Translations under genes and position numbers: made by a program
Source of the DNA: Amphiscolops sp. MND2022
Taxonomy: Eukaryota
Direction: 5' to 3'
NCBI GenBank assembly: GCA_964187785.1
Contig: OZ076412.1
Span: 37,324,001-37,388,000 of the forward strand
DNA: 64,000 nucleotides
Shown: positions 21,951-63,760 of the stretch, one piece after another
Layout: each line of letters opens with the position of its first letter
Position numbering within the stretch: the first letter of the stretch is position 1
Notes under the pieces: model-generated
Databases searched by the model: none
What the model was told of the DNA's origin: nothing
Seen by the model: the letters and a program-made list of their open reading frames with translations, nothing else

Positions 21951-21993
21951 GAATAACAATTTTGGTGTTTCCCGGGTTGATACCGTGCCAAAA

Positions 21994-39358: not shown

Positions 39359-39387
39359 TGCAATTCTTTAAATTGTTGACTGCGCCA

Positions 39388-39577
39388 TGAAGTAATTCTA
39401 AGGTAGGCTTGAGAAAAGAAGTTAAGATCAACGTTTATACTAGCCGAAAGTTTACTGTAATGATATCAGCTTTAGATTAAGGGTTAAATAGTTGTTGGTA
39501 AACAATAATGATAATAAGTTCAAACTAAAAATAGCAACGGTAATTGATATAAAGTTGTTTGTCAACAGTCTACTACA
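39388..39577 (-). repeat. Mag-like element 5' LTR
   Basis: PBS immediately inside; followed by TSD GGTCC. Confidence 0.95.
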
Positions 39578-39802
39578 GGTCCAGAAAGTTACAAGGCTGT
39601 TGCCAGAATAGCAAAGATTGACCCTCTGGGGCTCGGAATGATTTTTGAAACGGTAAAACTTTTAACCCTAAATGGACGAGAAAATTCCCGGATCCATCCA
39701 AAAATTTGGTTCTTAAACTTTAAACCGCATTATCTCCTGAACTATTCAAGTCCGACAAACGATTTATAGCGCGTTCGAAAAAAGAGAATCATGGCTTTCA
39801 CA

Positions 39803-41800: not shown

Positions 41801-42790
41801 TTGTTCGAAATCCATTGCGGTAACAAAAATGTCAATTCTTTGGGGTCTCAACTTTTCGAAAGCATAATTATGTTTATATGACCAGATTGCATATATTCTA
41901 CTAGCCCCGCCGTAAAAAGACAAAACTAAGCTTAAGCCTTTAAGTTACAGGTATCAATTTCTTGTTAATCTAACTTTAACTTCAACAGTAATGAAATCGT
42001 GGGCGAATTTTAAGACGTCAGTCGCTTCCACTTGAGGTTAAATACTAAAATCCCAAACATATCGTGCTTCTCCAAAAGAGAACTTCAGGTCAAAAAACTT
42101 CAAAATTCAAGCGCTCCTTACTGAGTTTCTCCGAAAAATTTGTTCCTTTGCTCAGGTGTTTCTCATGTACGTCAGGTATCTTTCTTCTACTTGCAAGGTT
42201 CATGTATTCGAAACATGTTCGGCGACTTCTGAGCTAAGTTTCACGAATGTTGAATAATTCTTGTGAATTTCAAAATCTATTACCATCAGTTAAATTTGTT
42301 TTATGACAGTCTCATTTCAAGGAAAAGTCCCGCATTTTTCATTCAATTATAAAGAACTTTCTGAATTTCTCAAATTTCGTAGGAAAAACTCTAGTTCGCA
42401 AAAAAAACTTAAAATACGTAGTAGTTAACCTTTATGATGCTTTCATGAGCATGATCAGAAGTCAGTTAAAGTCAACTTCAACTGGACACCATATGTGCGC
42501 TATATTACGGTATATCCGGAAAATTTTAGGCTGAATGCGTTTTATCAGAAGTAATTCATTTGAAAAAAATACTGGTGAAATCGAGAACGTTTCGAAAAAA
42601 GTCGCACAGTACCGAAAAAAGTGGGTAATTGTCGTCTTGTCTAGCTCTGCAAACGTGAAAAAAATGTAATATGCGTTTCACTTCTACTCCGCAATTGCAT
42701 GAAACAGTAAAGAATTCATAAAATAACAAATTTGGATATAACGGCAAAATATTATTGCCAAACATACCATCGATTCATATTTTTTCCTAC

Positions 42791-45700
42791 AATTTTTTCT
42801 TCATATCAGCGATGTCCTGATCTTCTTGAATATTTTGAATTTTTGCATCTGGTTTTTCAATATTTAGATTGATTCCTAGGTGTTTCATCCAATCTAATCC
42901 AAGTAATAGGTTTGTTCTTTTTGTGGTGATCAATAGCCCTAGTTTTTTTCTTTTCCCCGTCCATTTCAATGGTTGCCATTGTTTTTCCTTCGAATTTGAT
43001 TTTGTTGTTGTTTACGTCTCTGTATTCCTCATGGAGCGGGTATATTGTTGTAATACCATTGAATTTTTGTTTTGGTATTAAGGTGACCGGTGATCCGCTG
43101 TCTATTATGAATTTGATTGGACGGTTGTTAACGAATACCGTCACAGTAAAGAATGGTTGTCCGTCTTTGGATATTTGTTTTGTTGAGTGGACCGTCTTGT
43201 TTATTGAGTGTATCTTGTTTGGTGTCCAATTGTCTTCTTCTGCGCTGGTAGTAGCTTCGGAGTCCTGTTGAATATGTTTTATTCTTCGGTCCGAATATTG
43301 TTTCGATCGGCATGGCCTTGCGTAATGGCCGATTTTTCCGCAACTTAGACCCTTTTTTGTCTTTGCTGGGCAGTCATGTGATTTGTTCCAGTTCGGTGCC
43401 CCGCATCTGATACAGCCTACTTTTCTGAATTTGTTTTGTTTCTTTTTCTGGTTTTTGGTAGGTTCTTTTTCTATCCACGTGCTTGATTTTTGTTTCTTTT
43501 TCGGAATCTTTCGATTCATTCATTTTTTCGTACATGTATTCGTGGATTGTGTGGTAATTGCTTCCACCGACATGTCCCCTTTCTTTATTTTCTTTTTCAG
43601 GTCGTTATCGCCTGTCGTTTTTCCAATAACGGATAGAAATTTTGATGCGAGCAATTCAGCTGCCGTTATTTCTTCGAATTCGCAATTCTTCTCTATTTCT
43701 AGAATGCGTTTCCACGTTTCCGCAGCTGATTCTCCTAGTTCTCGTTTTAGATTGAAAAAATCTGCTCTGTTGTGGTGTTTGTTCCTCTCGGGAATGAAAT
43801 GGAGTCTGAAGAGTGTGTAAAGTCGGTATAATGGTAGGGAATTTGGTTCCCTTTCTCTTACTGTCTTTGTCATTTCCGTGATCGCTGATTGGCCAATCGC
43901 CCATATGAATACATCTTTGATTTCTTCCTCCAACTGCACTCTGAATTGTGGCAGTAACTCTTTGGAGTTGGTCATTTTCGATAAGTCGATTTCACGGGTC
44001 ATCTTGATGTATTGGACGAACTTTCTCCACCATAGTTTTGCACTGGTGTGGTCATTCTTATCGAGGATCGGAATGGGTAGCTTTTGTGTAGCTGTCCGTT
44101 TTACCGATCTCGTCGTTGTATTGTTTGGAAGGGATTGGCTGTTACTCTGTCCCGTTATGTTGCCTTCTTCGTCTTCCATTGCAATTCTTTAAATTGTTGA
44201 CTGCGCCATGAAGTAGTTCTAAGGTAGGCTTGAGAAAAGAAGTTAAGATCAACGTTTACACTAGCCGAAAGTTTACTGTAATGATATCAGCTTTAGATTA
44301 AGGGTTAAATAGTTGTTGGTAAACACTAATGATAATAAGTTCAAACTAAAAATAGCAACGGTAATTGATATAAAGTTGTTTGTCAACAGTCTACTACAGG
44401 TCCAGAAAGTTACAAGGCTGTTGCCAGAATAGCAAAGATTGACCCTCTGGGGCTCGGAATGATTTTTGAAACGGTAAAACTTTTAACCCTGAATGGACCA
44501 GAAAATTTCCGGATCCATCCAAAAATTTGATGCTTAAACTTTAAACCGCATTATCTCCTGAACTATTCAAGTCCGACAAACGATTTATAGCGCGTTCGAA
44601 AAAAGAGAATCAGGGCTTTCACACTGGCTCCAGACTTTGCGCCAAATATTTGCACGCCTCGTGTCTCTGACTGCATTTCAGCATGTTTGTAAACATGCTA
44701 GGGCCACTTTGACCCAATCTTGATACCAGTGGGATAAAGTGGCCACAAACAAAAACTGGAAAAACTGAAAATCTGGGCTCGTTTTTTTATTTTTTGGTTC
44801 CGTTTTCTTGATTTCGGAGACACCATGTCAATATTCCGTGAAAAGGCGTGCAATGCTATGTAATATCGTTTTAAAATCTTATTCAAATGTTTTCTTTATC
44901 ATACGGTCAGCTGGTGCGTTTAGAAGTTTGCAGAAATTAACTCGTACGAAATCGTACAATTGGTCCATGTAGGGTTAAATCTTTTTCGATACGGAACAAT
45001 TTCGTTTCCCCTAACATTGGCTCGCGAGATGAAAATATTTCAGAAAAATTCCAAGATTAAGTCTATCAAATTTCAAGTAAACCTTCTTTTGATTTTTGCA
45101 AAACAAGTGCAAAGTAGAGAAGACTAGGAGACACTGACATTTTAGACTCAATCCTTCACGTGATTTCTGTCAATCTCAACGAATCAGTGAAAATTGACAA
45201 GCTGGAAAAGAAATATTGAATAGCACCGTCTGTTGCAGCCGGGAACATCAAGAAGGTTATCAACGAAAAGATATTGAAAATTTTATCAACATTCTAGTTT
45301 ACCCAGAAATTAAGAATAAGTGGCGCAGTGGCATTTCTGTATTTTTGTATCCTTGTACAAGTATTTTTAAGCTTTTAGAATTAAACGGGACAACTTGATG
45401 AAGCATTGACAAAGAGCAGGCAAAAAAATAAAGGTTTTATCGGCAAAATAGCGCCTGTTTCCTCAAGCAGCAAACCATTCGAAGACGGGTTGAGAATTAG
45501 CATAACGAAGTCAACTAACGCAGACACTTGAAGAACTCGCTGTCTTATCAGGCGAAAGTGTCAAACTATACCGTCATGTTTTATTTTTGATATTTCATCG
45601 TCATTTTTTGTATTCAAGTTTGTGGGAAGCTCCATTGTTCGAAATCCATTGCGGTAACAAAAATGTCAATTCTTTGGGGTCTCAACTTTTCGAAAGCATA

Positions 45701-46625
45701 ATTATGTTTATATGACCAGATTGCATATATTCTACTAGCCCCGCCGTAAAAAGACAAAATTAAGCTTAAGCCTTTAAGTTACAGGTATCAATTCCTTGTT
45801 AATCTAACTTTAATTTCAACAGTAATGAAATCGTGGGCGAATTTTAAGACGTCAGTCGCTTCTACTTGAGGTTAAATACTAAAATCCCAAACATATCGTG
45901 CTTCTCCAAAAGAGAACTTCAGGTCAAAAAACTTCAAAATTCAAGCGCTCCTAACTGAGTTTCTCCGAAAAATTTGTTCCTTTGCTCAGGTGTTTCTCAT
46001 GTACGTCAGGTATCTTTCTTCTACTTGCAAGGTTCATGTATTCGAAACATGTTCGGCGACTTCTGAGCTAAGTTTCACGAATGTTGAATAATTCTAGTGA
46101 ATTTCAAAATCTATACCCATCATTTAAATTTGTTTCATGACAGTCTCATTTCAAGGAAAATTCCCGCATTTTTCATTCAATTTTAAAGAACTTTCTGAAT
46201 TTCTCAAATTTCGTAGGAAAAAACTCTAGTTCGCAAAAAAACTTAAAATACGTAGTTAACCTTTATGATGCTTTCATGAGCATGATCAGAAGTCAGTTAA
46301 AGTCAACTTCAACTGGACACCATATGTGCGCTATATTACGGTATATCCGGAAAATTTTAGGCTGAATGCGTTTTATCAGAAGTAATTCATTTGAAAAAAA
46401 ACTGGTGAAATCGAGAACGTTTCGAAAAAAGTCGCACAGTACCGAAAAAAGTGGGTAATTGTCGTCTTGTCTAGCTCTGCAAACAACGTGAAAAAAATGT
46501 AATATGCGTTTCACTTCTACTCCGCGATTGCAGGAAACAGTAAAAAAATTCATTAAATAAAAAATTTGGATATAACGGCAAAATATTATCGCCAAACATA
46601 CCATCGATTCATATTTTTTCTTTAC
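42791..46625. repeat. Tandem segmental duplicate (3.8 kb) of 37970-42790: gag/protease, LTR and flanking DNA
   Basis: Offset 4821 bp at the start; third LTR copy at 44209-44398 also followed by GGTCC; scattered substitutions and small indels between copies. Confidence 0.92.
42857..44179 (-). pseudogene. gag: Duplicated Mag-like gag/protease with an additional frameshift
   Basis: ORFs 43520-44179 and 42857-43519 reproduce the 440-aa ORF in two pieces. Confidence 0.9.
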
Positions 46626-47676: not shown

Positions 47677-50100
47677 TCAAATCAGAAGCGTCACGAAGTA
47701 AGACATGAAAACACAGATGTAAGATAGTTTGAGCGAAGTTGAAAAACTGTAATAAATCCAAACGATTCGAGAATAAGAGGTTTCCACCTCTACTTGATCA
47801 TTTAAGTCTTGGTTCGAAGGCAGAGGCGAAGAGACAACTTCCTTGGAATCTGAGTGACCATCTTCTAGGAATTTCAGAAAAATCGGATTCTTCATCAAAG
47901 GCGGTATATCACTCGAATCCACAGGTGCTGTAAACGTTAAGGCGTCTGTCACTAATGAAATGACCTCTGTGTTTTTAAGAGAGCCACCAATGACCTTTTT
48001 GAAAATCTCGGCCTGCGCAGGTGTCAAAACGTCGACCTTTTGGATCGTAACAATTTGGTCCATGTCTAGTTTTTGGAACACGTTGTCGGGAATGGAAGCG
48101 ATGACATCCTCTGAAAGGTCACCCAAAGCGTCCATAGCCAATAAGATGTTGGGATGAGTCATGAGAGTGATATCAGCGGCTTCACCGGCAGTTTTGGATT
48201 TGAGGGCGGCGGAATGGAACTGAAAGAAACTGGAGCTGACTGAATTTAGAGTGTTGCCTGACTTAGGGGGGCAATCAAGGTGATCGAATACCCCATCTGA
48301 TGTTAGAATTCCAGCACGCAAGTAGAGAATTGCGGATGGAGCAATACCACAAAGAAAGCGGCCCATAGTCTTGACATGCAAAACGGACAACTTGTCGACT
48401 GAGAGTTTATTCGTATGCAAGAAATGGTTGAAACCATTTGCAAGGTGATCGTGAGTCCATCCCGGAACTAATGACAACTTGTTCACAACTAATGAGTTAG
48501 AAAAGTCCAGGCTACTCATGTTTGAGGGGTGCAGAAACTGCGGAAGAAGCCACGATATGCGCAAAAGTTCTTCTGGACTGTGATTCCGGAGACTTTTAGA
48601 ACTGAACAACTTAGTTTTGATGGCTTTTATTGTCTCAGGCAAAAGTACATTAGCATTTTCCGCCAAGTACTCCACGTTCCGCCAAAATTGACAGTGCGCC
48701 ATAGAGTATATATCTGATGCATAAATAGAAGTTACTGGTAACAGTCGAAGAAAGTGGAACTTCTCAGGGCCATTTTCACATTCACTGGATTCGAACTCTT
48801 CCGTTACTAGTTTTGACAAAGCTATAGCACGAATTTCAGAAACGCAGCTCCCATTAGAGCTAGAGTCGCCAAAGCTTCGGCCTTTTTCAAGTTCTAGAGC
48901 CAAAATGTGCCAAAGATATGTTCTGTCGTATCGAATTTTGGACTCAATTAGATAATTGGATATATTGTTCGTTCTGTAAAGTACGCAGAAAGAGTTCCGC
49001 AACGACGAAAACTGATCGGACGTCAAAGATGCAATCGATGGAAGTTTAGGTCCAAGAGCATTGCCTTGCGCTTCATCGAAGGTGCACTCTTGAATAAAGT
49101 CCAAATTTTGCAACAGAACTGACGGAGAAACAATCTTGAGAACTTCGGCGGGCAAATAACAGAACAAGTTGCCCATTATTGCCACATCATCGTTGTTTAC
49201 GTCACACTCATGTGCTTGCTGGCACCCTTTGCATTGTATCAAATATAATTCTGCGAGAATTCGATTAGACTCGGTCGAGTATCTTCTAGGATCAGTCTGT
49301 CCAATTTTCATGAACACATCTCGGCATTTAGAGTCACTGTCAAAACCGGTCAATTCATGAAACTGTAATTCTCGAAAAACCTCACCGTTCAAAGAAATTA
49401 TGTGGAGATCCGAAAGCTTAGTCACCATGAATTGCTCATTGTGCAAGGTCCACCACACGTCCCTGAGCTTCGAAACAATGACTTGCATCATTTTTCTGTC
49501 GGCCATTTTTTCTGTCTGGTCGAGATACACTGCAATCGCATCAAAGAAGTAAAATGGATTCAAATTACGAATATCGGAGGGCGCGAACCCGCGCACCAAT
49601 TTCTTCAGAGAATGAGCAATCTGACCGGTGACAGGTACGCCACCGAGGAATTTTCTAAACTGTGTGTAGACAATGCGAGACATGACCAACGATAGGTCGA
49701 GGTCTATGATGTTATGGGAGCTTCCAGTTTTGATGAAACCCTGGATTTCGTTGAAATGTAGATCAAACTGCTTCAAATCTGAGTTCTGCAAAGTGTCTGA
49801 CAAAGCTTCCATCGATTGCAAAAGATTTGAACCGTACTCAACCAGCTTTGCATGCGGGCACGTTTCTAGAACCAATAACTTGTGGGCCGCAGTCAAAGTT
49901 TTTGAGATTGAGTTGATAACATTCAGTTTGGCACAGATAGAAGATTCGAACTCTATCTTGTCAGGCGACAAATATCCAATGAAGTTTGACAACTCTTCTA
50001 ATTGGTTCTCCTTGATGAGAATTTTTTTCTTGTACGGTGTGATATCTTTCAGCAGAAATCTACCCATCAAAGCTTGCTGACTCGCTGTCAAATGATTCAC
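47677..50100 (-). CDS. Terminal exon (807 codons) of a mesothelin/otoancorin/stereocilin-like surface protein
   Basis: Acceptor TTTTATCGTTGCAG ends at 50101, in frame; recurring MGxxLCxL motifs (MGNLFCYLP, MGRFLCGI), Leu-rich helical composition, hydrophobic C-terminal tail (GPI-signal-like). Family call is from pattern recognition only. Confidence 0.6.
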   Translation of the reverse strand: MNHLTASQQALMGRFLLKDITPYKKKILIKENQLEELSNFIGYLSPDKIEFESSICAKLNVINSISKTLTAAHKLLVLETCPHAKLVEYGSNLLQSMEALSDTLQNSDLKQFDLHFNEIQGFIKTGSSHNIIDLDLSLVMSRIVYTQFRKFLGGVPVTGQIAHSLKKLVRGFAPSDIRNLNPFYFFDAIAVYLDQTEKMADRKMMQVIVSKLRDVWWTLHNEQFMVTKLSDLHIISLNGEVFRELQFHELTGFDSDSKCRDVFMKIGQTDPRRYSTESNRILAELYLIQCKGCQQAHECDVNNDDVAIMGNLFCYLPAEVLKIVSPSVLLQNLDFIQECTFDEAQGNALGPKLPSIASLTSDQFSSLRNSFCVLYRTNNISNYLIESKIRYDRTYLWHILALELEKGRSFGDSSSNGSCVSEIRAIALSKLVTEEFESSECENGPEKFHFLRLLPVTSIYASDIYSMAHCQFWRNVEYLAENANVLLPETIKAIKTKLFSSKSLRNHSPEELLRISWLLPQFLHPSNMSSLDFSNSLVVNKLSLVPGWTHDHLANGFNHFLHTNKLSVDKLSVLHVKTMGRFLCGIAPSAILYLRAGILTSDGVFDHLDCPPKSGNTLNSVSSSFFQFHSAALKSKTAGEAADITLMTHPNILLAMDALGDLSEDVIASIPDNVFQKLDMDQIVTIQKVDVLTPAQAEIFKKVIGGSLKNTEVISLVTDALTFTAPVDSSDIPPLMKNPIFLKFLEDGHSDSKEVVSSPLPSNQDLNDQVEVETSYSRIVWIYYSFSTSLKLSYICVFMSYFVTLLI

Positions 50101-50907: not shown

Positions 50908-51453
50908 AAAAAATGGACCATTCAGAGTCAACTGAAAAAAACTACCCACTGTAATAGTTAGGCACTTTCCTTAAGAAAAGCGCAGACTAAAAAACAGACA
51001 ACATATGCACAATCAATTTCGGAAACATTTAGGATGTTTATTTATTCACTTTATTCTCTACATAATAAAGACAACACTGATACATAGTGCCCATGGCAGA
51101 TCATGAAAAGGCCTTGCCTTCGTTGGTACCATACCAATAATTTACAACTTCGTACAATTCACGAAAATATTCAGAGTAGTCTCAGGAAAACGCAATTACA
51201 TCGGCAATGGAGATGGCAGAAATTCACGGCGTGTAAAATCGCGACACTTGGTTGAAAAACTGGATTCGCATGATTCCGTGAAAATGCGCGTAGTCGATCA
51301 AAAATAATTTGAAGACAATTTCTTGAACTTTCAGTAAAATGTTCACTCAATGTGAACTTTTTGCCAGTTCTTACACATATGCTGGCCAATGGAAGTCTCT
51401 CAAATTTTTACCCAATGGAATTCAGATTTTGAGTAGTCAATGTGAATAAACTC

Positions 51454-51964
51454 TGTTGTAAACCGGTGTTTTGGTTACTTAGTACTCGCTTTCTAACCTA
51501 AGCAATAAGTCTCAAAAAGTGTTACGAAAAGGAAGATAAATTAAAACTGGAGGTTTACAGTAAGTAGAATTTTGTTAAGTCCTGCAAATCGCTGACTTGT
51601 AAAATTTATAATGTTCTGTCAATTTTGGGACTCTTTGTCCTTTCAATTTTGGGGGATTTCCAGAGAGCAAGAGAGAAGGAAAATTGAGAGAAGAGAAAAG
51701 AGTTGTTGCTTTCTCAGTGTTCCGCGTTGGAATTGGTACCTGTATTTCTCTTTCCAGCTCAGGACAGTTCTACTGTCGCGTGGCTTTTTCCTATTGGCTG
51801 AGCATTAAAGGAATTTGGGAATTCCAATTTCCTTTTAGCGCGTTGCTATTCGCTTAGAAAATAAAATGCTCTAATAATTCCGCTTTGGAAATTATTATGT
51901 CTCTGAGTCAATTTCCTCTGTTGGGAAAATGAACTAAATTAGAAATAGCGCATTGCTATAACTC
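51454..51964 (-). repeat. 3' LTR
   Basis: No difference seen against 63250-63760; the same 65-aa ORF is listed in both copies. Confidence 0.95.
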
Positions 51965-52173: not shown

Positions 52174-53733
52174 TCAATTATTCCTTCCAGTTGGCACTTG
52201 CTTTGAATTTATGGGCCAGGGTAATCGAGTACATTTATTCTTCCACTCGGGGTCTTTGTCAAAATTGTATGCAATGGGATAGTAGACTGTTGAAAGTCGG
52301 GTTTTGACATTTCCTCGTTTTACGTTAAAAATGGAGTACTTTTCGTATTGTTGCCAATCCCAGTGATCAGCGTGGGTTAGCAGGGCGTGTAAGCATTTTT
52401 CCAGCTTTTCATACTGTTTTGCATCTACTGCTTGGATCAATTGAATAGCCTCGGCTCGTTGAATGTCGATTTCGACTCTCATTGTCTGCAGTTGTTTGAC
52501 CAGCTTGTCAATTTCGGTTTGGTCCTTTAATTTAGTGTCCTTTTTATCAAGAATTTCCTTGAATCGTTTATTTGCCACATCGAAGGCATCAAGTTTCTCC
52601 TTTAGGAGGATGTTTGTCTTGTTTGATTCTAAAAGTTCACTTTGAAGTGACTCCGCTTTGGAGGTCGCTTCTTCAATTTGGCTTTTCAGTTCCTTATTCT
52701 CATCGAAAAGGTCTGATGTTACTCTTTCGGAGATTTCTAACTTGAATTCAGCTCGATTGGCACTCTCTTTAGCCATTGCTCGTGACCGATTGGCAGAGCA
52801 GAGAGCATTCTTCAAATTGGCTAGTTCAATGTTCAGGCTGCGATTTTGTTGTTCAAATTCGGCAATTGCGAATTCGGTTTTCCAAAGAGCAGCGGTAAGA
52901 TTGGTATCAGGTGTATCGATCCACTCTTCATTCCCAGTTTGTGTAGTCGCATTGCCTGTGGATCTAGTATTGGATGGAATATGGGGATTATCGGCGGACA
53001 CTTCCCTGAAGGAGGATGTACTATCTGACGAACTGATTGTACTTGTATTATCGTTGAAAAGAGGGTTTGGATCGTCAGGGAACGCGGTGATAACACCAAA
53101 GGGGGCCTTTATCATGGAGTCAAGTTGATGATTATAAACTACATACTTCCTTTCTTCAGGAAGACGGTCTTTTAACCTCCATTGGTTCATGTCCTTCGGA
53201 AGAGTAACTTTTATGGCTGGGCAATTGTCGGGGGGAATAACAATAGAACAATTCAACTTTTTGTGGACAATTTCAATTCCTGTTTTAGGAGTGGCAAGGA
53301 ACCATTCATTATGGTCCTTCCGTATACCATACTTTAGGAATTTGATGAATTTGGGGTCGTCAGTGTCCACATTATTTTCGCGGGATTTTTGGATTTCAAG
53401 CCTTTCTTTAAGGCTTGGAAACCAATTTTTTTCTTTGGGTAACCCATCGTCGAGTCTCATTGACACGCACGAGGGGCCTTTAATTTTCCCATCACCGAGT
53501 CTCTTTGACAGGCGGTTAGGGTCGAAATTCACATTATTTTCGAATTTAGTAGCTTTTCTTGGCCAATTTGGCTCAGGGTCGGTAGAGGCTAATCGCTTGT
53601 TAGCCTGGTTGTGATGTTTTTGAAAACAGGGTTTAACCCGTTTTGTTTTCCGGGACCTAAAGGTTACATTAGAAGGACGCAGGTCATCAGGGATGAAACC
53701 TTCAGGCTCGAATAGGTCGATAGCATCAGACAT
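52174..53733 (-). CDS. ORF4, 519-aa protein of unknown function with a long coiled coil
   Basis: ATG-initiated and uninterrupted, between env and the 3' LTR; basic N-terminus (RSRKTKRVKP), S/T-rich linker, heptad-like region (~aa 280-445); no signal peptide or TM segment seen. Confidence 0.85.
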   Translation of the reverse strand: MSDAIDLFEPEGFIPDDLRPSNVTFRSRKTKRVKPCFQKHHNQANKRLASTDPEPNWPRKATKFENNVNFDPNRLSKRLGDGKIKGPSCVSMRLDDGLPKEKNWFPSLKERLEIQKSRENNVDTDDPKFIKFLKYGIRKDHNEWFLATPKTGIEIVHKKLNCSIVIPPDNCPAIKVTLPKDMNQWRLKDRLPEERKYVVYNHQLDSMIKAPFGVITAFPDDPNPLFNDNTSTISSSDSTSSFREVSADNPHIPSNTRSTGNATTQTGNEEWIDTPDTNLTAALWKTEFAIAEFEQQNRSLNIELANLKNALCSANRSRAMAKESANRAEFKLEISERVTSDLFDENKELKSQIEEATSKAESLQSELLESNKTNILLKEKLDAFDVANKRFKEILDKKDTKLKDQTEIDKLVKQLQTMRVEIDIQRAEAIQLIQAVDAKQYEKLEKCLHALLTHADHWDWQQYEKYSIFNVKRGNVKTRLSTVYYPIAYNFDKDPEWKNKCTRLPWPINSKQVPTGRNN

Positions 53734-54005
53734 CGTGGGTAGGAGTAATTAAGTGTCGTTAAATTCTAAGCTGATAATTAAAGAACAACAAAGGATAACT
53801 TGGAATAACTGGTAGTTGGTAGTTGGCGACTATACTAAATTTTAGAAAGCGAGTTATATAGGGTTTGTAAGTCAATTTGTGCGTGTGTCATTATGTTTGT
53901 GACCAGAAGAAAAACATCAATAATCACAGTGGTATCTATTCCAGGAAGCCTTATCACTTTTAAGTAAGAGAAATTTCACTAAAGAGTAAACGTTTTTTGT
54001 AAACT

Positions 54006-56357
54006 TTATGGTGGGGGTAATGGAGCATTTCCATTACTGTTGTTATTTGAGGTACTAGGAGCGTTTTCATTGACAGTAGTCGGAGCATTTCCAGAACTGT
54101 TATTGCCATTGTTTTGTAAAAAGGTATTTAATGTACTAGGAGCATTTCCTGTTTGATTTAATACATTTGAGTCAGCTCTTTGTCTTTCATTAAGAGTAGA
54201 ACCAATCGCAATCGGATTGTTCAAGAGATGTACTTGAGGATACAAAAGAGTCGGATTTTCTTCGTACATTGGTGCAGCTATAGGTCTATTGCCTGCAGGG
54301 TTCTGCGAGAAACCATTTGAAATCCTTTTATTTTCCTCATTTTCGTACATTGGAGTCTGAAGTGAGAGAACAAATAAATTAAAAGTTGCGCCTAACATAG
54401 TTCTGACAAAACCAAAAGTGGCACCAGAAACTTTTCGAATTTCAAGTCCTCGGAGGACAATGACAACAACATCAATAACGAACTTTACCAAAAGGAAACA
54501 AGCAAAAAAGTTTCCTAAACACTGGATAATATATCCCAATTCGCCAAAAGTTTCCTTGAATTTATCGACGAAAAAAGAAGGCGTCAACAAGTGATCCAAC
54601 AGAAGTCTATCATTTAGACTCAAAAGACGTTCCAAGTTTCCCGGTTCGGAAATTCGAACTGAGTTACCTCGAGTCAAAATAGTCCGAGTAAGCTTCTTCA
54701 ATAATGTATCAGAAGCAGAGTTGTGGATTACATTATCCCAAAAATTTTTCATTTGATTTGGGGTGTACATTCCAGCACCCCTGGTGTCGAAAGTTGGAAA
54801 CTGAGTAATATGTCCAAGTTCAGTTGGCTTGAACAACAAAGGTTTATTGAAAGGCATGGGCTCAGGTAAAAGTTGGTACCAGGAATTGTCATTTTCGAGA
54901 TCAAGTTGAAACACATTTGTGTAATCTCCCAAACAGGGTATCTCGGATGCAAAATCATAAGTCTGACGGGTGATAGGATCTACAAATTTCGTAGACCGTT
55001 CAAACATGATCGGGATTCGATCATAACATTTATCAAGCACTTTCAAGGGCGACAAAAACTTCGGACAATGGTATAACCATGCGACACTTCCATCGGTGTC
55101 AAGGAACATAGACCTGTTTCCAGTTAACATGTAACCGGCAAGTCTTGTGTTTTGCATTGCTAACATTAAAATAGTTAACATTTGAGTTCGTTCGAGTTCG
55201 CATTGGCTCTGCAGAAGTGTCATTTCAGAATGCCTCAATTGCTTCGCATTGAAGTACATTATATAGTCTAACTTTGTTCCCAAGTGCAATTCATAATCAA
55301 TTTCATCCGCGCCGACGGTATGCCAAGGCTGTGCACCAATCCATTGGCCATTTGATTTGCTGAAAGATAATGACGAATAAGAGACCTGGCTAGAGTTGTC
55401 AATAGAAAATTGGTAGGCGTTAAAAGCATGTTCTTTAGTTCGTAGTTCTCCACCTGGCATTGCGAAACCTCCTTGGTAAGTCACAAATAGACTCTCAAAA
55501 TTTGTTTTGAACAATCGTTCAGGTTTCCCACATAGCTCATAGCTTTCAGGGAAGACTTTTATTTTGAGGTTCATTCCTTTGCCAGTCTCATTATGTTCGC
55601 TGATTAGGAAAAATTGGTTTTCGTTTCTGTTCGTTGACAATGGATACTTAAGCATTTTTGCTTCCTGAGTGAGGATTTTTGTCATCACGCAGTTTTCGGG
55701 AGTATCCCACGTGTAAGCGAATGGGTCTAAAGTAGTGGTCTCGCAACCACCCTCCATTAAAAGACATGGCAATTTTTGTTTATTTGGATTGGAAACCTCT
55801 TTGGTTCCGTAATCGAATGTCAAATTCACACGTTGCATGAACGTCTCGAAGGTATAGTGCTGTACTTGACCACTTGAGCAATGAATGGTTGTGCGGACTG
55901 ATTGTCCATCATTGAAATTCGATTGTTTCTTTGTATCGAATTCAATTGGGGCATCGAAGTTTTCGCTAAAAGACGAAATTTTAATTTTGTTCGTCTTTGA
56001 TGCCTGTCGGCACATTTCAGGAGTAACGATAAGGTCATACGTTATACTATTTTGAGTATGAACGTAGGACGAATGCGAAAACATTCCACAATTGTAGCGG
56101 AAGACATGGGCCTTGACAGAACACATTGTTGCTGCCAGATCAGTCCGATAGTTCTTCTGATAAAGTGTGATAGTAGCCGGGGTGACATACAAGTTTTCTG
56201 GTGTGATCTTGCAGTCTGCTACCTTGTTCAGGGAGTACATTCGATTGTCTTGCATTTTTGTGCAATCATAATGAGATACAAACAAGTTCTTTGACACATT
56301 GTCAAAGTCATCACTTGCACAAGAAAAAGGAAAAAGGAAAAGAATAAAGTAAAACAT
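54006..56357 (-). CDS. env: Envelope-like glycoprotein, 783 aa, chuvirus-glycoprotein-like pattern
   Basis: N-terminal signal peptide, Cys-rich ectodomain with N-glycosylation sequons, two hydrophobic segments near the C-terminus, long Asn/Pro-rich tail. Confidence 0.85.
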   Translation of the reverse strand: MFYFILFLFPFSCASDDFDNVSKNLFVSHYDCTKMQDNRMYSLNKVADCKITPENLYVTPATITLYQKNYRTDLAATMCSVKAHVFRYNCGMFSHSSYVHTQNSITYDLIVTPEMCRQASKTNKIKISSFSENFDAPIEFDTKKQSNFNDGQSVRTTIHCSSGQVQHYTFETFMQRVNLTFDYGTKEVSNPNKQKLPCLLMEGGCETTTLDPFAYTWDTPENCVMTKILTQEAKMLKYPLSTNRNENQFFLISEHNETGKGMNLKIKVFPESYELCGKPERLFKTNFESLFVTYQGGFAMPGGELRTKEHAFNAYQFSIDNSSQVSYSSLSFSKSNGQWIGAQPWHTVGADEIDYELHLGTKLDYIMYFNAKQLRHSEMTLLQSQCELERTQMLTILMLAMQNTRLAGYMLTGNRSMFLDTDGSVAWLYHCPKFLSPLKVLDKCYDRIPIMFERSTKFVDPITRQTYDFASEIPCLGDYTNVFQLDLENDNSWYQLLPEPMPFNKPLLFKPTELGHITQFPTFDTRGAGMYTPNQMKNFWDNVIHNSASDTLLKKLTRTILTRGNSVRISEPGNLERLLSLNDRLLLDHLLTPSFFVDKFKETFGELGYIIQCLGNFFACFLLVKFVIDVVVIVLRGLEIRKVSGATFGFVRTMLGATFNLFVLSLQTPMYENEENKRISNGFSQNPAGNRPIAAPMYEENPTLLYPQVHLLNNPIAIGSTLNERQRADSNVLNQTGNAPSTLNTFLQNNGNNSSGNAPTTVNENAPSTSNNNSNGNAPLPPP

Positions 56358-56468: not shown

Positions 56469-59400
56469 TTAGAAATAAGGCTTTCCGTACCACTCTCTAG
56501 GAATGTTTCGTAACGTTCCTGTATTTCGTGAGCGTGGAGCAGCGGTAGTACTAGTTGAAGGAATATTGCGGGGTAAAGGACTAGGTGTGGTTGGCTGACT
56601 AGTTATTGCTGGCGATTCTCCTTGAAATGAAATAGGAGTCTGAGGAGATGACTGAGGGATGCCAGAGTCGGGTGAGCTCGCTAAGAAAGTCGGTGTCGAA
56701 TGAGCGGAGCCGCATTTAGCAGGCGAACTATAAGTCGTGTTCATCCTGGATGGACCAGGTGTGTCGGGAAATATAGGTAAGTATTCTTGTACGTGCTGTC
56801 GTTCAGCAAGCGTTTCAATTGGTTTGTTCAATTCGGAGAGTCGATTCTTTGCATACTCGTTGTAAAAATGTTCGGTTCTGTCGTCGTTGACAGGCTTTTC
56901 GTAATTGGACAACAATGTCGGTAAGTCATTATTACGAGGGAAAAATTCAACGAGATGATTACGATGAACGACATGAATCCTCGTTGGATCCGAATCGAGC
57001 GCGACTTCATAGTTCACTTTCGTGATCACTTTAGTCACAGTGTACGGTCCACTTCGGAGCTCGCACAGTTTTTGTGATTTCCCGAATGGGACTTGATGAT
57101 TTTCGAGTAGTACTTTTTGTCCAACACGTAATGGTTTAGCAAGTTTGTACTTGTTTCGGTACGGCAGAGATCGATGATTCGCTTTACGAACCTTTGTATA
57201 TACTTTTCTGTATATGTTTTTGAATTGTGTTTCTCTGTGTAACAAATCCAATGAACACTTTGACGTCAGTAAGGAGTCGATGCAAGAATGTTTCGTGTCT
57301 TTATTCAGGTGTGAATGGTCAGGTAAAGACTGACAGAATTCGGATTGACACAAATCATTGTCGTCTCTCACTAGACCTAATTTCAACGAAATTGGAATTT
57401 GTGGTTTAAATCCGAAAACAACTTCGTAGGGGGTTGTTCCTGTACTGGCGTTCACTGAAGTGTTATGAGCGAAGGCGAATTGAGGAGCCAGCTTGGCCCA
57501 ATTATTTCCTGCTTCGGAAAGATAGCATCGAAAATATCGACTGAGGTGTTTGTTTTGAATTTCAACCTTGCCGTTAGTCCAAGGAGACCATTTAGTTCTT
57601 GGGGCATGCGTTATGCCTAAATCCAAGAGAAAGGTTGAGAAATCGGTGCTCATGAACGATGTTCCTCTATCATATACAAGTTTTTGAGGAATACCAAACG
57701 AAGTAATGAAAGAAGTCATGGCTTCAATGGTATTACTTGCATCAGTCGACTTGACTGGGTAAACTTGTATAAATCGTGAGAATGCGTCAATCACAACCAA
57801 ACAGTGATGTTTCCCGTCGCTCATCGGATTCAGAGGTCCTTTGTGGTCAATGTGAACAGTGTGAAAGGGATAAGGAATTTCTTCTCCCCATTTTTCATTT
57901 GGAGCGGTGTTTTGATCCTTTCTGACTTGTTTATTTTTTCGGCATATCAGGCAGCTCTTCGTTAGAGTCCGCACCCATTTATACATACCAGGCCAATAGA
58001 AAAATCTTTTCAGAGACAAAAGTGTCTTTTCACATCCGGGATGTCCTGAAAGTCGATGGTCGTGTGCAACATTGAAAGCTTCAATGAAACAGTTGCGAGG
58101 CAAACATATTTGTCGTGATGAATGCTTGCTAGTTTTACAAACAAGATGGGTTTCTTCATCGATGAACAATTTTTCAAATTGATTTGAGTAGCCAAGTAAT
58201 CCCTTGCATTGTCTTGACTCGACATCTTTTGACGGCACTTTGCCTTTAATTATCCATGATTTAACAGTGCTCAGGACTGGGTCATCCTGTTGGTTTGCCA
58301 AAATATTGTTTAAATCAAGGTTATCGGTAACAAGTTTCAATGGTTGTTGTGAGTCTTGAATGGTAAAAATGGAGAGGATGAAAGGAACATCTTCTTTAGA
58401 TGCATTTACAACCTCTGTGTTCAATAGAGGATCTTCGTCAGAAGCTTCATTGTCACTATTGTCGGTTTCAGAGTCAATCTCTGAATAATGATTTTCATGG
58501 ACGTCGGCTTCCACAACTATTGGTGGGGTTTGCCATTTACGTCGGATGTTGATGTCCTTACCTTCACGGAAGGAGTCAGAAACATCAAAGAGCGCTTTCG
58601 GAGAGTTTGGATCGTATACCGTACAGATAAGATCTGTACCATCATTTTTCAGGTGAAGTTTCTTTGTTTCACCCAAGTGAGTGCAAACAATTGGGTAGAA
58701 ATCATCGTTGGCGCTTTCAGCAGGGCTGTTGTGGTCTATCAGATACTGAACTTCGTGTCCACTTTGGCTGAAGAACTTTATATCTTTTGGAATTTCTTTG
58801 TGAAGCAATTGGTGCCCATTGAGATCTTTCAACGACACATTTCTGCTTAGCAAATCTGGAAACGCTAAATTCTTTCCAGGGGTCCAAATGATTTGCAAAT
58901 TAGTGAACTGAGTGATAATCACTTGGTAGCGGAAGAATCTATGAGATAATCTTCCTTTGCGTGCCCATAGATACAGGAGGGGCTTGTGATCACAGAATAC
59001 CTTGATGGGATGCCGAGATCCAATTATGAAATGCTCATACGTTTGTAGAGCAGAAATGATTCCGCATAGTTCTCGATGTAGCGTTGACATCTTTTGTTCA
59101 TCCTTTGTAAAGACTCGCGAATTGAAGGAAACTATACGTTTCCCGGAAGGAAAATCTTGAATTAAGATTGATCCCGTACCAATACTGGAGGAGTCGACAG
59201 GGATGTGGAACGGATACTTTGGGTTTGGTACAGCTAAGATGGTTTCTTCGCTGATTCTATTTTTTATGTCTTGGAACAAGTTCTCATGCTCTTTTGTCCA
59301 TTTGAATGGAGTGTCATCTCTCAGAAGTTCGTAGAAAGGTTTCGAATCTACATGTAGATTTTTGATGAAGGTGCTATAGAAACCTAAACTTCCTAAGATG

Positions 59401-61391
59401 CGCATTACATCTCTTTTGTTCTCAGGGCTTTTCAGGTTTTTCAAATCTTGTACCTTTTTGGCTACTGGCTGGATTCCTTTGTCGGAAACAATGTGTCCAA
59501 GAAACTGAACTTTCCTCAAGAACAGTTTTGTTTTGTTCGGTGCAGCTTTCAGACCTGATGATCTCAAGCACTTGAAGTATGAATCCAAATTATTCCACAT
59601 TTCTTGTTTGGTTTTTGCCTGTAGGATAACATCATCAATGTATGTTATCACTTGCTTCTTGGCTATCATTTCAGCGAAATGAATAGTCATTATCCGACTG
59701 AAGAAGTTTGGTAGTCCGCAAAGACCATAGAATCCTCGTTCGAACATGTACTGTTTTCCACCAACAATAAAGCTTGTCAACTTCTTCGTATCTTCGGTGA
59801 GGGGTACTTGGTTATAGGCGGAAGCTAAATCACTCGTTGTGTAATAAACTCCATCAAGTCGTGTCAGTAACATTTGTACTGGTTCAAGGGGCCATGAGTA
59901 GTTAGTCAAGTCAGTGATTGAGTTAAGATAACGTGCGTCAATCACAAGCTTCACGGTATCTCCTTTTGGTAAAATGATGATAGGGTTTGTGAATAGGGAA
60001 CCCATTTCCACATCATTTCCCATTTCTCGAATGATTCCAGCTCGTTGCAGTTCATTCAGAAGAATTTCAAGTCGGTCTCTGTAGTGCAGAGGGACTTTTG
60101 AGGGCCTTTGTTTTCGCAATTCGGCGTTTTTCTTCAATTGTACATGAAATGCTTGTGTGATTTTTCCAACATCATAAGTAAATTTTGAAAACACGTCATT
60201 GTTTTCAACTAAAACTCGGAGAAGATGTTGTAATTCACGGTCATTTATATCGGATTCAGAAAAGTCAAACTTTTCTAAAAAGTTGCGTTCGGCGGGACTA
60301 AACTCGGCGTAAAATTCATCGTCGAGTTGTTTCCTTTTAATATCGGAAGCAGTTTTGGGCATTTTCGGTTGTAATGATTTCACCTCATTGGAGAAATCAG
60401 TAGCCAGTTCATTTTGCGAAATAGCGCTTTCGGCCATTTGTTTCCGTGAATCAATTTCCGTTAAGGAATAAATATACGGTTCGGTCGAACAAACGTGTAA
60501 ATCCTTGTTCCATTGAGACTCAGAAGTTTTGAGATACTCAATGAAAGCGACATTGTCAACGACACTCATCAATTGCGAGGTCTCTTGGACGCTGTCGAGC
60601 AATGTGTATCCAAGAATTCCTTTACGAATAGTAATACTATTCGGGTTCGGATTGTTCAGCATTAAAGGATATTTCGACTCGTCTTGTGAGCAATACACGT
60701 GATACGTGTAAATGCCAGTATCTAAAATGTCTTGGTGTAAACGGAAACTTGTTCCCTGTTTGAACAAATGTTTATCTTCATCTCTAGCAATTAAACTCAA
60801 AACTCGGATCGAATACGGTGCAATTGTGATGTCTTGAGTCAATTCTACTGAATTAACCTGGGAGAAGTAGGGAAAAGGCTTGTCTAAATAAGGTGACAGT
60901 TTAACACATTTGCCGGGGAAGACCGTTAAAATTAGCATTGGATTTCTCAAGTTAATGAATTCACCAAAATTTGCCAAAAAATCCATTCCAAGAATGTTCA
61001 TTCTCGCCTCGGGGGAATCAGACACATAAACAGTGTGTTCGATCACACAAGAATATTCTACGTCAAACGCAGACTGAATAATAGTTTTCCCTTTCATGGG
61101 CATTGCGTGTCCATTAGCAGCTAAAGGCGATTTCTCGAGAGGCGTTACAACTAAAGGCTGAATTTTGTTAATTTCAGTGAATGTCTCACGGTTGATAATG
61201 GAGCACGTTGCGCCAGTATCTATGAGAAATTGAGTGCTAAGGCCATTATTTTTATTTTTGTCTCCGACGGCGTATTGAAATAATTCTATATAAAAATGTT
61301 GGCCGGACGTTCCAGCAGTTGGAATGTGAGGGGTTTCATTTGATTCCTCACTTTGTTGGTTCGGAGACTTGATTATTTTAAAGGATTGCAT
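56469..61391 (-). CDS. pol: Pol polyprotein (PR-RT-RNase H-IN), 1640 aa
   Basis: FLIDTGA; YIDD; RNase H D/E/D/D in VDSS, RELC, CDHK, PDLL; HHCC; HIDH..YDRG-35 aa-E; GPY/F-type module SGPYTV. Confidence 0.97.
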   Translation of the reverse strand: MQSFKIIKSPNQQSEESNETPHIPTAGTSGQHFYIELFQYAVGDKNKNNGLSTQFLIDTGATCSIINRETFTEINKIQPLVVTPLEKSPLAANGHAMPMKGKTIIQSAFDVEYSCVIEHTVYVSDSPEARMNILGMDFLANFGEFINLRNPMLILTVFPGKCVKLSPYLDKPFPYFSQVNSVELTQDITIAPYSIRVLSLIARDEDKHLFKQGTSFRLHQDILDTGIYTYHVYCSQDESKYPLMLNNPNPNSITIRKGILGYTLLDSVQETSQLMSVVDNVAFIEYLKTSESQWNKDLHVCSTEPYIYSLTEIDSRKQMAESAISQNELATDFSNEVKSLQPKMPKTASDIKRKQLDDEFYAEFSPAERNFLEKFDFSESDINDRELQHLLRVLVENNDVFSKFTYDVGKITQAFHVQLKKNAELRKQRPSKVPLHYRDRLEILLNELQRAGIIREMGNDVEMGSLFTNPIIILPKGDTVKLVIDARYLNSITDLTNYSWPLEPVQMLLTRLDGVYYTTSDLASAYNQVPLTEDTKKLTSFIVGGKQYMFERGFYGLCGLPNFFSRIMTIHFAEMIAKKQVITYIDDVILQAKTKQEMWNNLDSYFKCLRSSGLKAAPNKTKLFLRKVQFLGHIVSDKGIQPVAKKVQDLKNLKSPENKRDVMRILGSLGFYSTFIKNLHVDSKPFYELLRDDTPFKWTKEHENLFQDIKNRISEETILAVPNPKYPFHIPVDSSSIGTGSILIQDFPSGKRIVSFNSRVFTKDEQKMSTLHRELCGIISALQTYEHFIIGSRHPIKVFCDHKPLLYLWARKGRLSHRFFRYQVIITQFTNLQIIWTPGKNLAFPDLLSRNVSLKDLNGHQLLHKEIPKDIKFFSQSGHEVQYLIDHNSPAESANDDFYPIVCTHLGETKKLHLKNDGTDLICTVYDPNSPKALFDVSDSFREGKDINIRRKWQTPPIVVEADVHENHYSEIDSETDNSDNEASDEDPLLNTEVVNASKEDVPFILSIFTIQDSQQPLKLVTDNLDLNNILANQQDDPVLSTVKSWIIKGKVPSKDVESRQCKGLLGYSNQFEKLFIDEETHLVCKTSKHSSRQICLPRNCFIEAFNVAHDHRLSGHPGCEKTLLSLKRFFYWPGMYKWVRTLTKSCLICRKNKQVRKDQNTAPNEKWGEEIPYPFHTVHIDHKGPLNPMSDGKHHCLVVIDAFSRFIQVYPVKSTDASNTIEAMTSFITSFGIPQKLVYDRGTSFMSTDFSTFLLDLGITHAPRTKWSPWTNGKVEIQNKHLSRYFRCYLSEAGNNWAKLAPQFAFAHNTSVNASTGTTPYEVVFGFKPQIPISLKLGLVRDDNDLCQSEFCQSLPDHSHLNKDTKHSCIDSLLTSKCSLDLLHRETQFKNIYRKVYTKVRKANHRSLPYRNKYKLAKPLRVGQKVLLENHQVPFGKSQKLCELRSGPYTVTKVITKVNYEVALDSDPTRIHVVHRNHLVEFFPRNNDLPTLLSNYEKPVNDDRTEHFYNEYAKNRLSELNKPIETLAERQHVQEYLPIFPDTPGPSRMNTTYSSPAKCGSAHSTPTFLASSPDSGIPQSSPQTPISFQGESPAITSQPTTPSPLPRNIPSTSTTAAPRSRNTGTLRNIPREWYGKPYF

Positions 61392-62476
61392 GACTGCAGA
61401 GTGTCATACAAAGAATTCACCTTGTCAGGCTTTGCTTCGAACCGAACAGCTCCAGAGTAGCTGTTACTTCTGCTTCGGTAGCCATTTGAAACATAAGGAC
61501 TATTACTTCTGCCTCTTTGGTTGTTGGACCGATTGTCCGATTGTGATGTGTTATTATTCGGAGACTTGGGTCGACTTGGATAGTTTTGCGCATATGTTTC
61601 TTTTGGTTGGGGAGGAGGTTTTTCCTCGTTTTCTTTCTTCTTTTTCAATGTCCAACAGTACTTGATTGTGTGTCCGGATTTTTTGCAAAAGTTGCAAAAT
61701 CTAGTAAAGTCTTGTTTCATTTTTGGGTTGTTCGGATCATAGGTAGCATTGATTTGATGATTTTTCACCATGTTGGTGATTTCATTCAATGTTTTCTCTA
61801 TGTTAGTGAAACGGGCGTCCATTGTCCCTGTTGAAGTTTGGGAACTTGAAGGTTGCAAGCCGGACATTTCGGCACTCACAACTAAACTCATATCTTTATT
61901 TATGATAAGAGCCTGTAAAGCGTCCCATGATTTGTTGGGATCTTCAATCATTGCTTGATGGGCTTTCTGTTTAAGACCCGGGCGCATTAAGCCTCTTATG
62001 AAGTAGTCTTTGTACTTCCCAATTCTCTGATTTTCGCATGCTGTGATAGCCTCTTGATTCGCATTTGACGGTGTTGGCCAGCCTTTGTCTACCAACGTTT
62101 TTATTCTGTGGATGTAACTTTTTATGTTTTCATCAGGCTGTCTTTTCAGATTCTCGGCCTCAATTCGGAACCGATATTGCATTTTTCCATCCGTAAACCT
62201 GTTTATGAATTGTGTTTTCATTTCTTCCCATGCTAACGCAGCGTCTAATGAATCAAACCACTCAGCCGCAGGTCCGCGTAGAACGGATCCGAAAAGTGCT
62301 TTTCTGCGGTCGTCATACACGGTTTGTTGGCCATTTTCATTTGTCGTAGGCCTACTTCCTAAAGAAAAGCTGATTTTCGTTTCTAATAGACGTATAAAAG
62401 CAGTTGGGTCCTCACTTGAATCGATTCCAATGAACTTTTCTAATGCTAAGTCAGGGTACGCTACAGTGTTTGCCAT
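61373..62476 (-). CDS. gag: Gag, 367 aa
   Basis: CX2CX4HX4C knuckle CNFCKKSGHTIKYC; LRGPAAEWF capsid-like segment; first ORF after the PBS. Confidence 0.92.
   Translation of the reverse strand: MANTVAYPDLALEKFIGIDSSEDPTAFIRLLETKISFSLGSRPTTNENGQQTVYDDRRKALFGSVLRGPAAEWFDSLDAALAWEEMKTQFINRFTDGKMQYRFRIEAENLKRQPDENIKSYIHRIKTLVDKGWPTPSNANQEAITACENQRIGKYKDYFIRGLMRPGLKQKAHQAMIEDPNKSWDALQALIINKDMSLVVSAEMSGLQPSSSQTSTGTMDARFTNIEKTLNEITNMVKNHQINATYDPNNPKMKQDFTRFCNFCKKSGHTIKYCWTLKKKKENEEKPPPQPKETYAQNYPSRPKSPNNNTSQSDNRSNNQRGRSNSPYVSNGYRSRSNSYSGAVRFEAKPDKVNSLYDTLQSCNPLK
61376..61382 (-). promoter_or_regulatory. Candidate -1 ribosomal frameshift heptamer U_UUA_AAA
   Basis: Lies directly before the gag stop, in gag phase; pol is in the -1 frame across it. 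Confidence 0.6.
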
Positions 62477-62776: not shown

Positions 62777-63001
62777 GTGCAATTTAAGGAACACTCGTGT
62801 GCCAGAAATAAATTTCTTCCACGGAACCCGCACACGCTAATACCGAAGCTAGCGTAAGTGGATACTGTTTAGACTCAGTACCAAGAGTTGTGCAATTTAA
62901 GGAACACTCGTGTGTCAGAAATAAATTTCTTCCACGGAACCAGCACACGCTAATACCGAAGCTAGCGTAAGTGGATACTGTTTAGACTCAGTACCAAGAG
63001 T
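62777..63001. repeat. Two tandem ~113-bp repeats in the 5' leader
   Basis: GTGCAATTTAAGGAACACTCG...CAGTACCAAGAGT at 62777 and 62890, two mismatches seen. Confidence 0.95.
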
Positions 63002-63229
63002 ATGAAATTTTGTTTAGTATCTGCTTTAGATACTAAATGTTGTCAAAAAGTGAGTTTTTTTGTTTAATATCTGCTTTAGATATTAAATGTTGCACAAACA
63101 GTTGTTATTTTTCAAGAAATATTTGCTTTAAATATTTCAATTTTGCAAGATAAAACCCACCACGGGGAAAAGATTTTTGTTTTGTACGCTCGGTTTTATG
63201 GTCGTACAAATTGCGGTGTGAAATTGTTC

Positions 63230-63247
63230 TTTGCTCTGGTCGCACCA
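63230..63247 (-). promoter_or_regulatory. Primer-binding site
   Basis: TGGTGCGACCAGAGCAAA just inside the 5' LTR; priming tRNA not identified. Confidence 0.7.
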
Positions 63248-63249
63248 GA

Positions 63250-63760
63250 TGTTGTAAACCGGTGTTTTGGTTACTTAGTACTCGCTTTCTAACCTAAGCA
63301 ATAAGTCTCAAAAAGTGTTACGAAAAGGAAGATAAATTAAAACTGGAGGTTTACAGTAAGTAGAATTTTGTTAAGTCCTGCAAATCGCTGACTTGTAAAA
63401 TTTATAATGTTCTGTCAATTTTGGGACTCTTTGTCCTTTCAATTTTGGGGGATTTCCAGAGAGCAAGAGAGAAGGAAAATTGAGAGAAGAGAAAAGAGTT
63501 GTTGCTTTCTCAGTGTTCCGCGTTGGAATTGGTACCTGTATTTCTCTTTCCAGCTCAGGACAGTTCTACTGTCGCGTGGCTTTTTCCTATTGGCTGAGCA
63601 TTAAAGGAATTTGGGAATTCCAATTTCCTTTTAGCGCGTTGCTATTCGCTTAGAAAATAAAATGCTCTAATAATTCCGCTTTGGAAATTATTATGTCTCT
63701 GAGTCAATTTCCTCTGTTGGGAAAATGAACTAAATTAGAAATAGCGCATTGCTATAACTC
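63250..63760 (-). repeat. 5' LTR
   Basis: Direct repeat of 51454-51964; on the minus strand it has a CCAAT box and a TATAAA (63401-63406). Confidence 0.95.

What the first reader, a model, noticed from the sequence alone, without database searches (positions are those of the whole stretch)
52174..53733. Unknown 519-aa fourth ORF downstream of env
Seen: an intact ATG ORF inside the element with a basic NLS-like N-terminus, a globular-looking block, an S/T-rich linker, ~165 aa of heptad-like sequence and a Trp/Tyr-rich C-terminal block. It has no TM segment and no motif I recognise. Staying open for 1.56 kb suggests selection. Inference: an accessory factor (matrix-like, anti-silencing or RNA export), or a gene co-captured with env, since chuvirus genomes often place N next to G.
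Basis: partly seen in the sequence, partly recalled or inferred. Interest (0 to 1): 0.78.

Follow-up and report, generated by a model that had tools for sequence, protein, structure and literature searches.

The report
Swappable accessory gene of env retrotransposon
A young retrovirus-like element in an animal genome carries, behind its envelope gene, an extra gene of no known family that is kept by selection, swapped between element lineages, and most likely makes a nuclear protein that regulates the element or blunts host defence.

The parts
52174..53733 (-). ORF4, 519 aa accessory gene
   Evidence: dN/dS 0.076-0.078 against three 86%-identity copies, 0.077 over 54 pairs
53674..53733 (-). 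ORF4 residues 1-20, acidic/hydrophobic patch (activation-domain-like; inference)
   Evidence: an acidic/hydrophobic start in 10 of 14 family representatives
53458..53673 (-). ORF4 residues 21-92, basic, poorly conserved region with NLS-like cluster
   Evidence: 17 K/R; basic 8-mers in relatives
53077..53457 (-). ORF4 N-block, residues 93-219: helix plus SH3/Tudor/PWWP/KOW-type barrel made of two tandem units (134-176 and 175-219), conserved basic residues R111, K116, R118, R138, R186, K188, R190
52900..53067 (-). S/T-rich linker, residues 223-278, least constrained part
   Evidence: 60% identity, dN/dS 0.21-0.24 between subfamilies
52414..52899 (-). Coiled coil, residues 279-440, with conserved Asn (N297, N346)
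   Evidence: dN/dS 0.035-0.042 for 276-405
52177..52518 (-). C-block, residues about 406-519: predicted helical hairpin plus W/Y-rich tail, no known fold
   Evidence: AF2 pLDDT 62; dN/dS about 0.02; conserved to 30%-identity relatives
53771..53794 (-). Candidate splice acceptor 37 nt before the ORF4 ATG (inference)
   Evidence: rank 6 of 643 AG sites by an ad hoc pyrimidine score; similar sites at the same place in sister families
54006..56357 (-). env, 783 aa, class III (chuvirus G / gB-type) fusion glycoprotein
   Evidence: PF24664, E 1.2e-40
56469..61391 (-). pol, 1640 aa, PR-RT-RH-IN
61373..62476 (-). gag, 367 aa
   Evidence: PF03732, E 2.6e-06
63250..63756 (-). 5' LTR, 507 nt, TA...CA (sister copies TG...CA); target duplication at 63757-63760
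63233..63247 (-). Primer-binding-site-like stretch starting TGG; tRNA not identified
51454..51960 (-). 3' LTR, identical to the 5' LTR; purine tract just upstream; target duplication at 51450-51453

Best explanation
[quoted passage not shown] Its N-block is a tandem duplication of a unit that sister families carry once, as a short stand-alone gene in the same slot. PREDICTED: that block is a helix plus an SH3/Tudor/PWWP/KOW-type barrel with conserved basic residues. INFERRED: ORF4 is translated from a spliced or internally started subgenomic mRNA, enters the nucleus through the basic patch, oligomerises through the coiled coil, binds the element's own DNA/chromatin or unspliced RNA with the barrel, and recruits host machinery through the acidic/hydrophobic N-terminus and the C-block. 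It would thus raise transcription or export of the element's genomic RNA, working like Tas/Tat/Rev or CERV without being related to them. Confidence that it is a functional accessory gene is about 0.97; the figure given is for the regulator mechanism.
For: Selection. Linkage to env: 37 of 37; 65 of 67 loci beside env/pol. Cassette exchange: informative sites group the three compared copies differently in env (156 of 179), ORF4 93-519 (205 of 230) and LTR 200-507 (75 of 87), chi-square p about 1e-136; a sister family shows the same pattern (env dS 0.10, post-env genes 0.62-0.66). Fold: pLDDT 85; top structural rows are mostly PWWP, Tudor, KOW, BAH and Agenet domains of nuclear proteins. Duplication: repeat 1 vs 2 hhalign probability 93, score 30.3, 0 of 60 column shuffles reach it; single-unit gene vs repeat 2 probability 96; whole-profile match E 1.1e-7. 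R118 and position 186 are basic in all rows of a 19-row diverse set. No TM segment. Acceptor-like site before the start here and in relatives, four of which have no ATG in this frame and so need splicing or another non-standard start. Precedent for a nuclear export factor in an LTR retrotransposon: CERV (PMC10309623, abstract and section 9).
Confidence: 0.45

Rival explanations
1. ORF4 is a counter-defence protein: the Tudor-like barrel and C-block act as decoys or adaptors that bind host silencing (piRNA, heterochromatin) or innate-immune/cell-death factors, made multivalent by the coiled coil.
For: In sister families the same cassette holds a RING-less coiled-coil TRAF/MATH gene (PF21355 E 3.6e-22 and others), the form of a dominant-negative signalling adaptor (established knowledge). 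The cassette is swapped in two separate families, as host-facing modules often are. Top folds include methyl-lysine and methyl-arginine readers.
Against: Low dN/dS in both blocks (0.02-0.09) shows no arms-race signal at gene level. The C-half is unrelated to the TRAF gene (2 of 40 and 7 of 40 shuffles reach its score). No conserved aromatic cage was shown.
Confidence: 0.27
2. ORF4 is a particle protein (matrix- or tegument-like) that links the Gag shell to the Env tail or chaperones the genome during budding.
For: Always next to env; the only Pfam match in Gag is the core gag domain; coiled coil plus basic surface suit a lattice or RNA chaperone (inference).
Against: No TM segment. It is exchanged freely against near-identical gag and env, which fits poorly with tight structural contacts. 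NLS-like and acidic patches point to the nucleus.
Confidence: 0.15
3. ORF4 is a nucleoprotein or other gene co-captured with G from a chuvirus-like virus and retained.
For: env is a Monjiviricetes-type fusion protein and ORF4 lies directly behind it.
Against: Predicted beta-barrel plus 160-residue coiled coil is unlike the helical N fold (recalled). The slot is modular across sister families and includes a host-type TRAF gene. Origin from some other, unsampled viral gene is not excluded.
Confidence: 0.05
4. ORF4 is a recently transduced host gene fragment riding along without function.
For: Coiled coils and SH3-like barrels are common in host proteins; genome searches ignore introns, so a host source could be missed.
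Against: dN/dS 0.077 at dS about 1; conserved across lineages whose env are only 36-60% identical; all 150 listed relatives from 1.84 billion representatives match this family itself.
Confidence: 0.02

Closest known systems
Ty3/gypsy errantiviruses with HSV/gB-type Env (PMC13524379; saw abstract, section 5 part 1, term passages, supplement term search)
   Same: LTR-gag-pol-env order, class III chuvirus-like env, multiple near-identical copies.
   Different: That paper treats three ORFs; 'ORF4', 'extra ORF', 'downstream of env', 'TRAF' and 'accessory' do not occur in its main text by my term search. Here a fourth gene, and in sister families up to about seven extra ORFs.
CERV of C. elegans Cer1 (PMC10309623; abstract and section 9)
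   Same: About 517-aa accessory protein of an LTR retrotransposon, NLS, coiled-coil element, modular globular domains, spliced mRNA; model for the proposed mechanism.
   Different: CERV shares exons with gag and has a Cys-rich ring domain and a G-protein-like domain; ORF4 is a separate post-env frame with a duplicated SH3-type barrel. Sequences were not compared directly.
Burro/GYPSM1 giant planarian gypsy elements (PMC6431247; passages)
   Same: A gypsy element with a captured MATH_TRAF_C domain and mononegavirus-like env: precedent for the TRAF gene of the sister families.
   Different: There the domain lies in or upstream of a giant ORF1; ORF4 itself has no MATH domain.
Oikopleura Tor elements (PMC4402516; passages)
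   Same: Marine invertebrate env-carrying elements with 4-5 bp target duplications; env made by splicing or from an internal promoter, either of which could serve ORF4.
   Different: No gene behind env is mentioned in the passages seen.
Tudor / PWWP / KOW / Agenet small beta-barrels (6kco, 2mam, 5ohq, 3pnw, 1g5v)
Foamy-virus Tas/Bet, lentiviral Tat/Rev, HTLV Tax/Rex (recalled, no call)
   Same: Regulatory genes between env and the 3' LTR, made from spliced or internal-promoter mRNA.
   Different: Vertebrate Retroviridae with unrelated proteins; analogy only.

Membership tests
Ty3/gypsy element with gB-type env (errantivirus in the broad sense) | Paired LTRs ending in CA with 4-6 bp target duplication | tested here: met
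   507-nt identical LTRs, 4-bp duplication here and in three sister copies
Ty3/gypsy element with gB-type env (errantivirus in the broad sense) | gag, then pol in order PR-RT-RH-IN | tested here: met
Ty3/gypsy element with gB-type env (errantivirus in the broad sense) | env encoding a class III fusion glycoprotein | tested here: met
   PF24664 139.6 bits, cut-off 27
Ty3/gypsy element with gB-type env (errantivirus in the broad sense) | RT groups with reference Metaviridae clades | not tested
   holds only elements of this genome; no reference RTs at hand
Chuvirus / mononegaviral nucleoprotein | Two-lobed, essentially all-helical RNA-binding fold without a long coiled coil (recalled) | tested here: not met
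   confident beta-rich model of residues 85-235 and 160-residue heptad stretch
Chuvirus / mononegaviral nucleoprotein | Sequence or structure match to viral N proteins | tested here: inconclusive
   not listed; an unlisted family is not excluded
Royal family readers (Tudor/PWWP/Agenet) or KOW | SH3-type five-stranded barrel | tested here: inconclusive
Royal family readers (Tudor/PWWP/Agenet) or KOW | Aromatic cage for methyl-Lys/Arg | not testable with these tools
   no residue-level superposition returned; conserved aromatics F129, Y135, W144, W185, Y197, F212, F218 may simply be core
PWWP domain | PWWP motif and C-terminal helices | tested here: not met
   no such motif; the barrel is followed by a low-confidence linker
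CERV-type export factor | Cys-rich M domain and G-protein-like domain | tested here: not met
   no conserved Cys among invariant columns; predicted domains differ
CERV-type export factor | Spliced mRNA; required for genomic RNA export | not testable with these tools
   no RNA run listed
TRAF/MATH proteins | C-terminal MATH beta-sandwich after a coiled coil | tested here: not met
   ORF4 C-block predicted helical and no better than shuffles against the sister TRAF genes, which do score on PF21355/PF22486

The most novel reading that the evidence does not exclude
These elements are invertebrate counterparts of complex retroviruses: behind env they carry a recombining regulatory cassette whose core is an undescribed Tudor/PWWP-like chromatin- or RNA-binding domain. 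In ORF4 it is duplicated into an interdigitated double barrel and joined to an oligomerising effector, giving the element its own trans-activator or silencing antagonist; sister lineages pair the single barrel with a PAM2-coiled-coil-TRAF decoy.
Probability: 0.35. Interest if true: 0.8.

Novelty: new variant of a known kind. Interest (0 to 1): 0.62.

Why it matters
Env-carrying Ty3/gypsy elements are usually described as three-gene elements. Here a whole clade keeps a conserved, modular, exchangeable gene block in the position where vertebrate complex retroviruses keep their regulators. If ORF4 reads chromatin or RNA it would be an element-encoded regulator or anti-silencing factor in an animal, with a new domain family, and two natural alleles in near-identical backbones make host-element specificity directly testable. 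It also makes testable whether complex, multi-gene organisation arose independently outside Retroviridae.

Full report
Observation. The 519-aa frame is at 52174-53733 on the minus strand. It is far longer than chance (524 codons against at most 178 in 1000 shuffles). It is the fourth gene of a 12.3-kb LTR element: 5' LTR 63250-63756, gag, pol (PR-RT-RH-IN), env (PF24664, E 1.2e-40), ORF4, 3' LTR 51454-51960. The LTRs are identical and flanked by a 4-bp duplication, so the insertion is recent. The genome is 1.07 Gb; the host was not identified.

Selection. The genome search gave 96 matches from 83 scored of 248 candidates, in groups of about 99%, 94% and 86% identity plus a family at about 31-38%. 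Of the 22 best loci, 12 have no stop in 519 codons from the start (one with an altered tail), 6 have one stop and 4 have frame breaks. Between the 99% and 86% groups dN/dS is 0.076-0.078 with bootstrap limits about 0.05-0.11 and 0.077 over 54 pairs at dS 1.02. By region: C-block 0.02, coiled coil 0.04, N-block 0.07-0.09, N-terminus 0.11, linker 0.21-0.24. Within groups it is 0.23-0.28 on few changes, and against the 94% copy 0.33 at dS 0.08, as expected when post-insertion decay weighs more, though this is higher than gag/pol/env in the same pair. All 37 env loci of 54% identity or more listed have an ORF4 match within 3 kb downstream (the first look scored only 57 of 8788 env candidates). Of 67 sampled loci, 65 have env or pol sequence beside the match.

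Cassette exchange. The same two groups differ at only dS 0.035-0.041 in env, 0.03-0.19 in pol and 0.13-0.21 in gag; substitutions jump from 1-4 to 20-60 per 250 nt just after the env stop. In a three-way comparison, the odd copy out is the 94% copy in env (156 of 179 informative sites), the 86% copy in ORF4 93-519 (205 of 230) and the window copy in LTR 200-507 (75 of 87); p about 1e-136. So ORF4 is exchanged by recombination and is not locked to one LTR type. One sister family repeats the pattern (env dS 0.10, post-env genes 0.62-0.66); another pair does not (dS about 1.3 throughout).

Relatives. 112 proteins at E<=0.001 and 264 representatives, of which 150 were listed; all 150 match this family itself by BLASTP; the other 114 were not seen. 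None of the members read in 10 clusters has a name; sources are ENA and Logan. Some distant proteins carry N-block plus coiled coil with no visible C-block; their context is unknown.

Sister families. Elements with env only 36-38% identical carry, directly after env, a 153-169-aa gene (ORF A) with an acidic/hydrophobic start, a basic patch, the helix and a single unit. It matches the ORF4 N-block at E 1.1e-7, and each unit above all shuffles. It is abundant (150 matches listed in each; 135 proteins) and selected (dN/dS 0.10-0.13). It is followed by a coiled-coil TRAF/MATH gene, in some families with a PAM2-like start (16.6 bits, under the cut-off of 20). In four families ORF A is an open frame of 193-227 codons with no ATG that begins at a T-rich AG site, so it needs splicing or another non-standard start; an acceptor-like site also lies 37 nt before the ORF4 ATG (rank 6 of 643 by my own score). 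In RT and env trees of 14 and 13 rows, the ORF4 and 416-aa families form one clade (96/98; 100/100) apart from the ORF A plus TRAF families. The outgroup branch is too long to root, so single-before-double is parsimony, not shown. ORF4's C-half is not related to the TRAF gene.

C-half. About 160 residues of heptads with conserved Asn lead into a highly constrained block predicted as a helical hairpin with an unresolved W/Y-rich tail (pLDDT 62). It has no placed fold.

Mechanism. Shown: a selected, env-linked, swappable accessory gene with a duplicated domain shared across the clade. Predicted: an SH3-type barrel. Inferred: subgenomic mRNA, nuclear import, oligomerisation, binding of element DNA/chromatin or RNA, and recruitment of host factors, giving a Tas/Rev/CERV-like regulator (0.45). 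Rivals: antagonist of host silencing or immunity (0.27), particle protein (0.15), co-captured chuvirus gene (0.05), passenger (0.02). The first two are not exclusive.

Comparison and novelty. The element is a member of a known kind, gB-type env Ty3/gypsy (PMC13524379; abstract, part of section 5, term passages, and a term search of 7 supplementary files for six host names only). Extra ORFs in LTR elements are known: CERV (PMC10309623; abstract, section 9), MATH in Burro (PMC6431247; passages), rotifer ORF3s (PMC5408684; abstract), plant aORFs (PMC7264820; abstract), Tor env expression (PMC4402516; passages). Vertebrate retroviral regulators and the nucleoprotein fold are recalled. Eight searches listed nothing on this gene or domain; Repbase, subscription papers and bioRxiv supplements were not seen and could hold an annotation. 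Verdict: real, new protein family in a known kind of element; new variant; interest 0.62.

Noticed in passing
L115-L136, L149-L164: Sister env families look like complex retroviruses: between pol and env a 128-aa ORF, an antisense acidic 196-231-aa ORF, paired 131+113-aa (or 136+154, 117+132) ORFs and a 176-aa ORF; after env, ORF A and a TRAF gene. Five of these small ORFs and two had no Pfam match.
   Followed up: partly
L149:6250-7194, L151:6156-7058, L155:6118-7122, L157:6122-7060: Post-env ORF B: PAM2-like N-terminal motif (sub-threshold), coiled coil and TRAF/MATH domain without RING; could couple poly(A)-binding protein to a signalling decoy (inference).
   Followed up: partly
L149, L151, L155, L157, just after the env stop: ORF A is a conserved 193-227-codon open frame with no ATG, starting at a T-rich AG site.
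   Followed up: partly
L041:5630-8370: A copy with the end of pol and all of env deleted still has an open ORF4.
   Followed up: no
window 63250-63756: The window's LTR starts TA where four sister copies start TG, and LTR positions 200-450 exist as two types only 73-75% identical; L006 looks recombinant within this segment.
   Followed up: partly
window 62777-63010: Two 122-nt tandem repeats (96% alike) in the 5' leader, plus a shorter 80%-alike pair.
   Followed up: no
window 47677-50067 (-): Intronless 796-aa ORF with a weak stereocilin match (E 0.0004, under cut-off), probably a host gene.
   Followed up: no
window 33400-46500: Fragments of a second, distant gypsy element in nested tandem duplications (4.8, 3.8 and 1.0 kb spacings).
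   Followed up: no
window 13600-22300: Broken ORFs that read like BEL/Pao gag-pol pieces (recalled resemblance), between 240-nt direct repeats.
   Followed up: no
window 30190-31110: Array of about 120-nt degenerate repeats also found scattered in the window.
   Followed up: no
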